A program made the position numbers. From the NCBI RefSeq assembly GCF_056712565.1, contig NZ_CM160072.1: a stretch of 64,000 nucleotides of DNA; one strand, written 5' to 3'. Below, one piece after another: positions 14,701 through 17,700 of the stretch (position 1 is the first letter of the stretch; each line of letters begins with the position of its first letter).

Positions 14701-17700
14701 CAACGTTAGTAATACCACCTTTATCATCCACATAAGACTTCGCAGCATCACTGGATTCACCCGCGGTAAACCCAATAGTTTTGCTCAGTACACCGGAATT
14801 AAAGGTAATTGAAGATGTCGCGGCAGCCGCTTTGGTTTCGCTCAATACTACATCTTTACTCACTGTAGCCTGATAAGTAATCCCACCAGGGATTAACGGA
14901 GCTACTGGAGAGGTTGTCGCAGGAGTTGCTTTTGCGATAGTATATTCAGTGCCATTGAATGTCAGAGAAGCACCGTCACTACCTTCGCTCGCGGCTTTAA
15001 GCAGCGCTTTCATATCAGCTTTAGCTGCGCTACCAGCGTTGTTAGTCGTCAAGTTGCCTGCATCGTCTACGTATGCCTGGCTTCCACCGATGGTGATATT
15101 ACCTGCTGAATCCGTTTCGAAAGAAACAGTACCATCTTTTGTGGTGTAAGAACCATTAACAGATTTACCCACATCAGCATGAAGGGTGGCAGCTAACGCA
15201 TCACGTTTTTTAGCTGAATCAGTAGCCTGCGCCGCGGCGTCTACACCCGTACCAGCAGTAGATTTGGTGGTAGTAAAATCACCAGATTTAGCGTTGTAAG
15301 TATAATCTACGCCGCCAACGGTGACTTTATCGCCATTCCCTAATTTATCGAATGCAGCATCGGTAGTTAACAAGGTATTTTCGGTTTTCAGATCATAAAG
15401 ACCTGTCGTGGTGTTTAACTTCGCGCCAGCAGAAGTTAAATCACTTACCGTTGCAGCTTTGTTGGTAATAGTACCTTTACCATTTACGTTAAAACCATTC
15501 AGACCCAGAGTATCAGAATCGATTTTCTTCAGGTCGATAGTGATAGTTTCACCGTCATTCGCACCAACCTGAATTTTCATCGAACCGTCTTTTGCCAGTA
15601 CGTTCACGCCGTTGAACTGGGTCTGGCCGGATACGCGGTCAATTTCATCAAGACGGGATTTGATTTCGTCCTGAATGGAGTCCAGATCCGAATCAGAGTT
15701 AGTTCCGGTAGAAGCCTGAACCGTCAGCTCACGGATACGCTGTAAGTTGTTGTTGATTTCAGACAGCGCGCCTTCGGTGGTCTGTGCAACAGAAATACCG
15801 TCGTTGGCGTTACGTGCAGCCTGAGTCAGGCCTTTAATGTTAGAAGTAAAACGGTTAGCAATCGCCTGACCCGCGGCGTCATCCTTCGCGCTGTTAATAC
15901 GCAAGCCAGAAGACAGACGCTCGATAGAACTCGACAGCGCAGACTGGTTCTTGTTGATATTATTTTGAGTGATCAGCGAGAGGCTGTTGGTATTAATGAC
16001 TTGTGCCATGATTCGTTATCCTATATTGCAAGTCGTTGATTACGTTTTGGGTTTCCACCCGTCGGCTCAATCGCCGTCAACCCTGTTATCGTCTGTCGTA
16101 AAACAACCTTTAGAATTTTTTTCACAAACAGCCATTTTTTGTTAGTCGACGAAATACTCTTTTCTCTGCCCCTTATTCCCGCTATTAAAAAAAACAATTA
16201 AACGTAAACTTTGCGCAATTCAGGCCGATAACCCCGGTATTCGTTTTACGTGTCGAAAGATAAAAGGAAATCGCATGGCAAGTATTTCATCGCTGGGAGT
16301 CGGGTCAGGTCTGGATTTAAGTTCAATCCTTGATAGCCTCACCGCCGCGCAAAAAGCGACGCTAACCCCTATTTCAAATCAGCAATCGTCGTTTACCGCT
16401 AAACTTAGCGCCTACGGTACGCTGAAAAGCGCGCTGACAACTTTCCAGACCGCCAATACTGCATTGTCTAAAGCCGATCTTTTTTCCGCTACCAGCACCA
16501 CCAGCAGCACCACCGCGTTCAGTGCCACCACCGCGGGTAACGCCATCGCCGGGAAATACACCATCAGCGTCACCCATCTGGCGCAGGCGCAAACCCTGAC
16601 AACGCGCACCACCAGAGACGATACGAAAACGGCGATCGCCACCAGCGACAGTAAACTCACCATTCAACAAGGCGGCGACAAAGATCCGATTACCATTGAT
16701 ATCAGCGCGGCTAACTCGTCGTTAAGCGGGATCCGTGATGCCATCAACAACGCAAAAGCGGGCGTAAGCGCAAGCATCATTAACGTGGGTAACGGTGAAT
16801 ATCGTCTGTCAGTCACATCAAATGACACCGGCCTTGACAATGCGATGACGCTCTCGGTTAGCGGTGATGATGCGCTACAAAGTTTTATGGGCTATGACGC
16901 CAGTGCCAGCAGCAACGGCATGGAGGTCTCGGTCGCCGCCCAGAATGCACAGCTGACGGTCAATAACGTCGCCATTGAGAACAGCAGCAACACCATCAGC
17001 AACGCGCTGGAAAACATCACCCTGAACCTGAACGATGTCACCACAGGCAACCAGACGCTGACCATCACTCAGGACACCTCCAAAGCGCAAACGGCGATTA
17101 AAGACTGGGTGAATGCCTATAACTCGCTAATAGATACCTTTAGCAGCCTGACCAAATACACCGCCGTAGATGCGGGAGCTGATAGCCAGAATTCTAGCAA
17201 TGGCGCACTACTCGGCGACTCCACGCTGCGAACGATTCAGACGCAGTTGAAATCGATGCTGAGTAATACCGTCAGTTCTTCCAACTATAAAACGCTGGCG
17301 CAGATTGGTATCACGACCGATCCCAGCGATGGCAAACTGGAACTGGATGCCGACAAACTCACCGCTGCATTGAAAAAAGATGCCAGCGGCGTAGGTGCAT
17401 TGATTGTTGGCGATGGTAAAAAAACCGGCATCACGACCACCATCGGCAGCAACCTGACCAGTTGGCTTTCGACAACGGGCATTATTAAAGCCGCTACCGA
17501 TGGCGTTAGTAAGACCCTGAATAAGTTAACTAAAGACTACAACGCCGCCAGCGATCGCATTGATGCGCAGGTCGCGCGCTATAAAGAACAATTTACCCAA
17601 CTGGACGTTTTAATGACCTCGTTAAACAGCACCAGCAGCTACTTAACACAGCAGTTCGAAAACAACAGTAATTCCAAGTAATCAATATTCATCGGGAGAC

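What the first reader, a model, noticed from the sequence alone, without database searches (positions are those of the whole stretch)
16010..16274. Divergent sigma-28 promoters for fliC and fliDST
Both strands of the fliC-fliD intergenic region carry near-consensus sigma-28 elements (TAAAGGTT-N11-GACGATAA for fliC, TAAACTTT-N11-GCCGATAA for fliD). The region is therefore conserved despite the serotype-specific fliC body, which supports the view that fliC was exchanged by recombination within the gene rather than together with its regulatory region.
Basis: partly seen in the sequence, partly recalled or inferred. Interest (0 to 1): 0.2.

Follow-up and report, generated by a model that had tools for sequence, protein, structure and literature searches.

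The report
Known fliC and fliDST sigma-28 promoters
The 265-base gap between the flagellin gene fliC and the filament-cap operon fliDST holds the two textbook back-to-back sigma-28 promoters already mapped in E. coli K-12, so the finding is real but ordinary; the added claim that this control region stays put while fliC is swapped holds for this strain against K-12 but not across the species.

Summary
They are the only two matches to the sigma-28 consensus with two or fewer mismatches in 64 kb (0.08 expected), and each points at its gene. The fliC element is identical to the FliA ChIP-seq site of K-12. The fliD element differs from K-12 by one base (G, not A, at 16224), and G is the majority E. 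coli allele. Both elements are perfectly conserved in a 66-79%-identical allele class whose spacers have diverged. The fliD element recurs beside fliC in 83 species of Enterobacteriaceae and Erwiniaceae. The recombination inference is only partly right. Against K-12, divergence lies wholly inside fliC (intergenic 98.5%, central domain unalignable). Species-wide, the block from fliC to fliD exists in three deeply divergent cassette classes (3186, 1326 and 861 genomes). So the regulatory region does sometimes travel with fliC. Motif presence cannot tell the two scenarios apart, because all three classes keep sigma-28 promoters. Verdict: already known, low interest.

The parts
16105..16112 (-). 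fliC sigma-28 -35 element TAAAGGTT
   Evidence: Identical to the K-12 FliA ChIP-seq motif (PMC4183435). Invariant in class I and class II alleles.
16086..16093 (-). fliC sigma-28 -10 element GACGATAA, 11-nt spacer at 16094-16104
   Evidence: The element is invariant between classes I and II, while only 4 of 11 spacer bases are shared.
16010..16079 (-). Predicted fliC 5' untranslated leader (start about 16077-16079 inferred, not mapped), with the small hairpin GGGU-GGAA-ACCC and a Shine-Dalgarno AGGA
   Evidence: The start is inferred from the usual distance between the -10 element and +1. Conserved blocks lie at 16053-16060 and 16071-16080. The fold is not significant, z = -1.37.
16113..16123 (.). 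A/T tract directly upstream of the fliC -35 element (GAAAAAAATTC on the fliC strand), possibly UP-element-like
   Evidence: Part of the invariant block 16103-16123 across classes I and II and conserved in the 40-species alignment. The function is inferred.
16143..16195 (+). Conserved inter-promoter blocks (CGAAATACTC at 16150-16159; TTATTCCCGCTATTAAAAAAAA). Candidate FlhD4C2 site and class 2 promoter region of fliDST
   Evidence: FlhDC occupancy and FlhDC-dependent expression of fliDST in K-12 come from PMC4183435. The consensus scan scored 18 of 26, which is not above chance. The placement is inferred with low confidence.
16205..16212 (+). fliDST sigma-28 -35 element TAAACTTT
   Evidence: Invariant in all three E. 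coli classes. TAAACTTT is present in 79 of 83 species.
16224..16231 (+). fliDST sigma-28 -10 element GCCGATAA (K-12 has ACCGATAA)
   Evidence: The window's 60-mer is exact in 2551 genomes and the K-12 variant in 360. GCCGATAA is present in 81 of 83 species.
16239..16274 (+). Predicted fliD 5' leader (start about 16238-16240 inferred) with Shine-Dalgarno AAGGAA
   Evidence: Inferred from spacing. The conserved block TATTCGTT lies at 16238-16245.
14252..16009 (-). fliC, H7-type flagellin, 585 aa
   Evidence: It is 100% identical to fliC of E. coli ATCC 11775 / DSM 30083 and 97.7% identical to O157:H7 fliC.
14055..14248 (-). fliC 3' UTR, orthologue of the K-12 small RNA FliX, ending in an intrinsic terminator (stem 14078..14062)
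   Evidence: K-12 annotation, alignment at about 95% identity, terminator scan.
16275..18481 (+). fliD (16275-17681), fliS (17706-18116) and fliT (18116-18481) operon

Best explanation
The intergenic region carries two back-to-back class 3 flagellar promoters read by RNA polymerase with sigma-28 (FliA). One drives the monocistronic fliC transcript, which runs leftward to the terminator at about 14062 and includes the FliX 3' UTR. The other drives fliDST rightward. Sigma-28 is held by the anti-sigma factor FlgM until the hook-basal body is complete, so both fire late. This step is established knowledge and was not tested here. fliC depends almost wholly on sigma-28. fliDST also has an FlhD4C2-activated sigma-70 class 2 promoter in the same gap, probably using the conserved blocks at 16143-16195. 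That promoter supplies most fliDST mRNA during de novo assembly, with the sigma-28 promoter as the late or repair input. Shown here: motif positions, statistics, identity to the K-12 sites, and conservation. Taken from the literature: FliA and FlhDC occupancy and regulation in K-12. Inferred: transcription start sites and the position of the FlhDC site.
For: Only two matches with up to 2 mismatches occur in 64 kb, against 0.08 expected, and both are correctly oriented. K-12 FliA ChIP-seq motifs are TAAAGGTTGTTTTACGACAGACGATAAC (fliC, identical to the window) and TAAACTTTGCGCAATTCAGACCGATAAC (fliDST, one base different). fliC RNA falls from 2319 to 11 in a fliA deletion. fliDST falls from 633 to 356 in a fliA deletion but to 3 in flhD or flhC deletions, FlhDC ChIP-qPCR is positive, and FliA overexpression restores fliD expression in an flhD deletion (PMC4183435). 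fliC/fliD is listed among the eight well-characterised sigma-28 promoters, with the consensus TAAAGTTT-n11-GCCGATAA (PMC2859248). In the footprint against class II, 32 of 32 motif bases are identical, against 8 of 22 spacer bases and 133 of 213 other positions (Fisher p = 3e-7). Class III keeps TAAAGTTC-N11-GCCGATAC for fliC and TAAACTTT-N11-GCCGATAA for fliD. In 83 species found through the fliC pattern, an independent fliD motif lies at fixed distances: TAAACTTT in 79 of 83, GCCGATAA in 81 of 83, with 68 different spacers. In Enterobacter the fliC transcription start agrees with the K-12 FliA elements (PMC10705468).
Against: There are no transcription start, ChIP or expression data for this strain. 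I found no mapped E. coli start sites in the accessible literature. In K-12 the sigma-28 promoter contributes less than 2-fold to fliDST under the tested condition. The cross-genus conservation of the fliC element is partly by construction, because the pattern was the search key. The FlhDC consensus scan cannot place the class 2 site. The sigma-70 scan found no promoter-like site inside 16010-16274, as expected for activator-dependent class 2 promoters but uninformative.
Confidence: 0.94

Rival explanations
1. The motifs are chance resemblances to the sigma-28 consensus and are not used as promoters.
For: Short degenerate motifs do occur by chance. Two 3-mismatch hits elsewhere in the window are intragenic and probably meaningless.
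Against: Only 0.08 matches with up to 2 mismatches are expected per 64 kb, against 2 observed within 150 bp, both facing the right genes. The sequences match the ChIP-seq-bound K-12 sites. The motifs are perfectly conserved where the spacers diverge.
Confidence: 0.01
2. The fliD sigma-28 element is a relic. fliDST is transcribed essentially only from the FlhDC-dependent class 2 promoter.
For: In K-12, fliDST drops only from 633 to 356 without FliA but to 3 without FlhDC (PMC4183435).
Against: The element is nearly invariant in 83 species and in all three E. coli classes despite free spacer drift, which requires selection. FliA binds it in vivo, and overexpressed FliA restores fliD in an flhD deletion. 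[quoted passage not shown] K-12 carries a minority A at the first -10 base, whereas this window has the consensus G, so K-12 may understate its strength. That last point is an inference.
Confidence: 0.04
3. The window's H7 serotype arrived as a whole cassette (fliC plus regulatory region plus fliD) and not by recombination inside fliC.
For: Whole-cassette replacement clearly happens in E. coli. Classes II and III differ from the window across fliC, the intergenic region and all of fliD, with sharp ends at the fliD/fliS junction and flanks 96-100% identical.
Against: Against K-12 (H48, same class I), the intergenic region, fliD and both extreme ends of fliC are at background identity (97.3-99.4%), and only 14401-15850 diverges. 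Against O157:H7 (also H7), a 22-SNP patch confined to 15527-15818 shows exchange inside the gene. Within class II, several fliC central domains also sit on one shared intergenic-fliD backbone.
Confidence: 0.1

Closest known systems
E. coli K-12 fliC and fliDST class 3 (FliA/sigma-28) promoters
   Same: Same genes, position, orientation and spacing. The 27-nt fliC core is identical. The intergenic region is 98.5% identical, with 4 differences at 16046, 16125, 16149 and 16224.
   Different: The fliD -10 element starts with G (consensus GCCGATAA), not K-12's A. The G allele is the majority: the window's 60-mer is exact in 2551 genomes against 360 for the K-12 version.
Dual class 2 / class 3 control of fliDST (Salmonella and E. 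coli K-12)
   Same: The same operon and the same intergenic layout. Conserved blocks lie between the two -35 elements, where FlhDC is reported to bind in K-12.
   Different: The exact FlhDC site and class 2 start are not defined here. The consensus scan was inconclusive.
Salmonella flagellin gene clusters with two evolutionary patterns (Liu et al. 2017, PMC5744181)
   Same: fliA and fliS follow the core genome, while fliC and fliD co-vary in deep groups, with recombination mainly within groups. E. coli shows the same kind of pattern, with three classes.
   Different: E. coli has three classes. There is no fliB or fljB. Class III carries a fliC leader identical to that of S. Typhimurium.
Target site of prophage TldR-guide RNA repressors on host fliC promoters (Wiegand et al., PMC10705468)
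   Same: The window has the GTTAT motif (16085-16089) abutting and overlapping the FliA -10 element, as described for targeted Enterobacter fliC promoters.
   Different: There is no second flagellin gene in the window. tldR itself was not searched for, and there is no evidence that this strain is targeted.
Pseudomonas aeruginosa a-type and b-type flagellin with matching A/B FliD caps (own knowledge, not checked here)
   Same: Co-inheritance of flagellin type and cap type as a linked polymorphism.
   Different: A different genus and gene order. The comparison rests on memory only.

Membership tests
Sigma-28 (FliA) class 3 flagellar promoter | -35 octamer close to TAAAGTTT | tested here: met
   fliC has TAAAGGTT and fliD has TAAACTTT, each 7 of 8. 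The consensus is from PMC2859248.
Sigma-28 (FliA) class 3 flagellar promoter | 11-nt spacer followed by a -10 octamer close to GCCGATAA | tested here: met
   fliC has GACGATAA (7 of 8) and fliD has GCCGATAA (8 of 8). Both spacers are exactly 11 nt.
Sigma-28 (FliA) class 3 flagellar promoter | Located upstream of, and oriented towards, a late flagellar gene | tested here: met
   The fliC start codon lies 76 nt past its -10 element and the fliD start codon 43 nt past its -10 element. Gene identities come from NCBIfam.
Sigma-28 (FliA) class 3 flagellar promoter | Elements under selection: motif conserved while spacer and flanks drift | tested here: met
   32 of 32 motif bases against 8 of 22 spacer bases are shared between classes I and II. 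Class III retains the motifs. Across 83 species there are 68 different fliD spacers.
Sigma-28 (FliA) class 3 flagellar promoter | FliA holoenzyme occupancy and FliA-dependent transcription from a start site a few bases downstream of the -10 element | not testable with these tools
   Shown for the identical (fliC) or one-base-different (fliD) K-12 sequences by ChIP-seq and RNA-seq (PMC4183435). Start sites for this strain are only predicted.
FlhD4C2-dependent class 2 promoter (fliDST) | FlhDC box: two imperfect inverted arms about 10-12 bp apart (consensus recalled from Stafford et al. 2005, paper not held) | tested here: inconclusive
   The best candidate, 16144-16186, scores 18 of 26. The window has 235 hits of 17 or more against about 119 in shuffles, so the score is not discriminating.
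FlhD4C2-dependent class 2 promoter (fliDST) | FlhDC occupancy and FlhDC-dependent, FliA-independent expression | not testable with these tools
   In K-12, ChIP-qPCR is positive and fliDST falls from 633 to 3 in flhD or flhC deletions. The K-12 region is 98.5% identical to the window.
Intragenic-recombination model of H-antigen change | Divergence between serotypes confined within fliC, with the regulatory region and fliD at background identity | tested here: met
   Window against K-12: intergenic 98.5%, fliD 97.7%, fliC ends 97.3-99.4%, central part 42.5%. The same pattern holds among class II alleles.
Intragenic-recombination model of H-antigen change | Holds for all serotype differences in the species (regulatory region universally conserved) | tested here: not met
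   There are three cassette classes with intergenic identity of about 66-79% or lower and FliD identity of 79% or 50%.

The most novel reading that the evidence does not exclude
The regulatory region is one arm of a trimorphic cassette (fliC ends, promoters, fliD) maintained in E. coli. The K-12/window form (class I, 59% of genomes) may not be the ancestral Escherichia form: its FliD is closest to a Kluyvera species, class II matches other Escherichia species, and class III carries a Salmonella-identical fliC leader. Only the sigma-28 cores are held constant by selection. In addition, the K-12 fliD class 3 promoter is a minority down-variant (A for G at the first -10 base). The K-12 conclusion that FliA adds little to fliDST expression may therefore not apply to wild strains such as this one.
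Probability: 0.35. Interest if true: 0.35.

Novelty: already known. Interest (0 to 1): 0.15.

Why it matters
For the window itself it matters little. These are the canonical late flagellar promoters, useful only for correct annotation: fliC is monocistronic with the FliX 3' UTR, and fliDST is dual-controlled. The wider comparison carries two practical cautions. First, finding conserved promoter motifs says nothing about whether a regulatory region was exchanged, because selection keeps the motifs in alleles that are otherwise 50-80% identical. Second, K-12 is not fully representative: it carries a minority base in the fliD -10 element and only one of three species-wide cassette classes. This is relevant to H-typing primers placed in fliC ends or flanks, and to transferring K-12 regulatory conclusions to pathogens.

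Tried and rejected
- **Rfam scan of 12000-20000:** nothing in the intergenic region. There were only sub-threshold REP-like hits (naRNA4, ES036) between fliA and fliC.
- **Sigma-70 and terminator scan:** no sigma-70-like site inside 16010-16274. The fliC terminator was found at 14078..14062.
- **Fold of the fliC leader:** not better than shuffles (z = -1.37), so no structured element is claimed.
- **Literature search for mapped E. coli fliC or fliD start sites:** none found. Cho et al. supplements only show an RNA polymerase peak over the region.
- **Papers not held:** Stafford 2005 and Wozniak & Hughes 2008, so the FlhDC consensus used is from memory.
- **FlhDC box scan:** not discriminating.
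- **Search for papers describing E. coli fliD or intergenic classes:** none for E. coli, only the Salmonella analogue.
- **Second flagellin gene in the window, as a sign of a prophage fliC-tldR locus:** none.
- **Broad literature query:** returned mostly irrelevant papers.
- **Chance explanation for the motifs:** rejected on statistics and conservation.

Full report
**Observation**

The window holds fliA (13213-13932, minus strand), fliC (14252-16009, minus strand, 585 aa), fliD (16275-17681), fliS, fliT and amyA on the plus strand. NCBIfam confirms FliC and FliD. The fliC gene is 100% identical to that of E. coli ATCC 11775 / DSM 30083 and 97.7% identical to O157:H7 fliC, so it is an H7 allele.

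- fliC promoter, minus strand: TAAAGGTT (16112..16105), 11 nt, GACGATAA (16093..16086).
- fliD promoter, plus strand: TAAACTTT (16205-16212), 11 nt, GCCGATAA (16224-16231).

Scanning the whole window for TAAAGTTT-N11-GCCGATAA with up to two mismatches returns only these two sites, against 0.08 expected. With three mismatches, two more hits appear inside unrelated genes.

**What it is**

These are the known class 3 promoters. Fitzgerald et al. 2014 (PMC4183435) list the following FliA ChIP-seq sites in K-12:
- fliC: TAAAGGTTGTTTTACGACAGACGATAAC, identical to the window including the spacer.
- fliDST: TAAACTTTGCGCAATTCAGACCGATAAC, which differs from the window at one base (A, where the window has G at 16224).

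In their RNA-seq, fliC falls from 2319 to 11 without FliA. Hollands et al. (PMC2859248) give the consensus TAAAGTTT-n11-GCCGATAA, count fliC/fliD among the eight well-characterised sigma-28 promoters, and found no CRP binding to that fragment. The whole intergenic region is 98.5% identical to K-12, with four differences at 16046, 16125, 16149 and 16224.

The G at 16224 is the common allele. The window's 60-mer around the fliD promoter is exact in 2551 of 3187 genomes carrying this class, and the K-12 version is exact in 360 genomes; those sampled in the result rows are K-12 laboratory derivatives. The fliC promoter 60-mer is exact in 2552 genomes.

**Functional constraint**

E. coli itself supplies a natural footprint. 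A second allele class of the intergenic region is about 66-79% identical to the window, depending on how gaps are counted. It keeps all 32 motif bases, while only 8 of 22 spacer bases and 133 of 213 other positions agree (Fisher p = 3e-7).

A third class is too divergent for blastn to detect, yet it still has promoters at the equivalent positions:
- fliC: TAAAGTTC-N11-GCCGATAC.
- fliD: TAAACTTT-N11-GCCGATAA.

A scan of one genome per species for GTTATCGTC-N11-AACCTTTAG gave 91 hits, against about 9 expected by chance. About that many hits were indeed in unrelated phyla. In 83 hits a flagellin gene (MAQVINTN...) lies on one side. On the other side, at discrete distances (72-73, 82, 90-94, 102-105 or 161-163 nt), sits an independently found fliD promoter: TAAACTTT in 79 of 83, GCCGATAA in 81 of 83, with 68 different spacers, followed by fliD. 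The genera include Enterobacter, Kluyvera, Pluralibacter, Cedecea, Leclercia, Buttiauxella, Pantoea and Erwinia. The conservation of the fliC element in this set is by construction. The conservation of the fliD element is not.

fliDST is dual-controlled. In K-12 it drops only from 633 to 356 without FliA but to 3 without FlhD or FlhC. FlhDC occupies the promoter by ChIP-qPCR, and overexpressed FliA can restore fliD expression in an flhD mutant.

Between the two -35 elements, the blocks CGAAATACTC (16150-16159) and TTATTCC-CGCTATTAAAA (about 16173-16190) are conserved across the E. coli classes and across 40 species. They are the likely FlhD4C2 site. My consensus scan scored the candidate 16144-16186 at 18 of 26, which is not above chance, so the placement is an inference.

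The fliC transcript should end at the terminator at 14078..14062. It includes an orthologue of the K-12 small RNA FliX at 14055-14248, about 95% identical. Transcription start sites (about 16078 on the minus strand and about 16239 on the plus strand) are predicted only. I found no mapped E. coli starts in the accessible literature. The Enterobacter fliC start is reported to agree with the K-12 FliA elements.

**The recombination claim**

| Region | Identity |
|---|---|
| fliA | 99.4% |
| fliC 3' end (149 bp) | 97.3% |
| fliC 14401-15500 | 42.5% (unalignable) |
| fliC 15501-15850 | 86.0% |
| fliC 5' end (159 bp) | 99.4% |
| Intergenic region | 98.5% |
| fliD | 97.7% |
| fliS-fliT | 97.6% |

The H7/H48 difference therefore lies wholly inside fliC. 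Against O157:H7, the H7 central domain is 98.7% identical, but 22 SNPs cluster at 15527-15818 (93.7%). That is an intragenic mosaic.

Species-wide the picture differs. fliS-fliT are present at 95% identity or more in 5377 of 5426 complete genomes. The intergenic region falls into three classes that add up to 5373 genomes, the same number that have a fliS-fliT match covering at least 80% of the query:

| Class | Examples | Genomes |
|---|---|---|
| I | window, K-12, O157:H7, E2348/69 | 3186 |
| II | H4 strains and others | 1326 |
| III | O111:H8, O26, ETEC H10407 | 861 |

Each class has its own fliD. FliD amino-acid identity is 79% between classes I and II, 50.5% between I and III, and 49.5% between II and III. 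Each class also has its own fliC ends.

The divergent block has sharp ends:
- Against class II it runs from inside fliC to the fliD stop codon (about 17690). In the H4 strain SCU-115 the fliA-fliC spacer also differs (49% identity).
- Against class III it runs from about 14079 (so the FliX region is replaced) to about 17730, 24 nt into fliS.
- The flanks are 96-100% identical.

A strain whose flanks are 99-100% identical to the window carries class II. In some lineages, then, fliC moved together with its promoters and fliD. Within class II, fliC genes of 1050, 1287, 1311 and 1332 bp share one intergenic-fliD backbone that is 93-100% identical.

The picture is therefore two-level. Central-domain swaps occur inside fliC within a class, and whole-cassette replacement occurs between classes. 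Because all classes keep sigma-28 promoters, the presence of the motifs is not evidence for either mode.

**Origin of the classes (side observation, partly followed)**

- Class II is 95-98% identical in FliD to E. whittamii, Escherichia sp. E1V33 and two 'E. coli' records that represent separate species in the collection. Its divergence is colinear with that of the flanks, so it looks like the genus-typical form.
- Class I FliD is closest, in this limited sample, to Kluyvera genomosp. 3 (91% amino-acid identity).
- The class III fliC leader matches 40 of 40 bases of an S. Typhimurium SL1344 fliC-flanking primer printed in PMC5056187.
- A parallel pattern is published for Salmonella: fliA and fliS follow the core genome, while fliB, fliC and fliD co-vary in two groups (PMC5744181). 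I found no equivalent E. coli description in the library, but specialists in H-antigen genetics may know it.

**Verdict**

The finding is a correct identification of already characterised promoters. Novelty: already known. Interest is low. The cassette trimorphism and the minority K-12 -10 base are the only mildly new points, and both lie outside the finding as given.

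Noticed in passing
window 14079-17730; loci L002, L004-L008, L100: The block from fliC through the intergenic region to fliD exists in three deeply divergent classes in E. coli (3186, 1326 and 861 genomes, summing to the 5373 genomes with a full-length fliS-fliT match). FliD is 79% or about 50% identical between classes, and the flanks are 96-100% identical. The window is class I.
   Followed up: yes
L032, L041, L053, L059, L016, L100 against window 16010-17681: Class II matches other Escherichia species (FliD 95-98%). Class I FliD is closest to Kluyvera genomosp. 3 (91%). The class III fliC leader is identical over 40 bases to a Salmonella Typhimurium fliC-flanking primer. 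This suggests inter-genus exchange or an ancient polymorphism.
   Followed up: partly
window 16224: K-12 has A where the window and most E. coli have G at the first base of the fliD -10 element. The K-12 60-mer is exact in 360 genomes, and the window's 60-mer is exact in 2551.
   Followed up: yes
window 15527-15818: A cluster of 22 SNPs (93.7% identity) lies in the 5' conserved part of fliC between this H7 allele and the O157:H7 allele, while the H7 central domain is 98.7% identical. This is an intragenic recombination patch.
   Followed up: partly
window 14055-14248 (-): The fliC 3' UTR is an orthologue of the K-12 small RNA FliX (about 95% identical) and ends in a strong terminator (14078..14062). 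Class III strains lack this region. Sub-threshold Rfam REP-like hits (naRNA4, ES036) lie at 14077-14187.
   Followed up: partly
window 16085-16089 (+): GTTAT, the target-adjacent motif of prophage-encoded TldR guide-RNA repressors, abuts the fliC -10 element as described for Enterobacter. There is no second flagellin gene in the window.
   Followed up: partly
window 13958-13985 (-): fliA's own sigma-28 promoter, TGCAGAAACGGATAATCATGCCGATAAC, is identical to the K-12 ChIP-seq site. Exact GCCGATAA occurs 10 times in the window against 2.15 expected, including 34074 and 35923, which were not examined.
   Followed up: partly
window 25495-25521 (-) and 25899-25925 (-): Two sigma-28-like matches with 3 mismatches lie inside an AraC-family regulator gene (24989-25786) and a YbcL-like kinase-inhibitor gene (25796-26347). 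They are probably chance, although intragenic FliA sites are known in K-12.
   Followed up: partly
L063 (Cupriavidus respiraculi): The exact 18-base fliC promoter pattern occurs 97 nt upstream of a flagellin gene (MAQVINTNTL) in a betaproteobacterium. No fliD-type motif is beside it.
   Followed up: no
L060 and L083: Contigs labelled Collinsella sp. MAG and Chryseobacterium sp. carry enterobacterial fliC-fliD loci (L060 is class I, E. coli-like, with FliD 99.6% identical). These are likely contamination or mislabelling in the public records.
   Followed up: no
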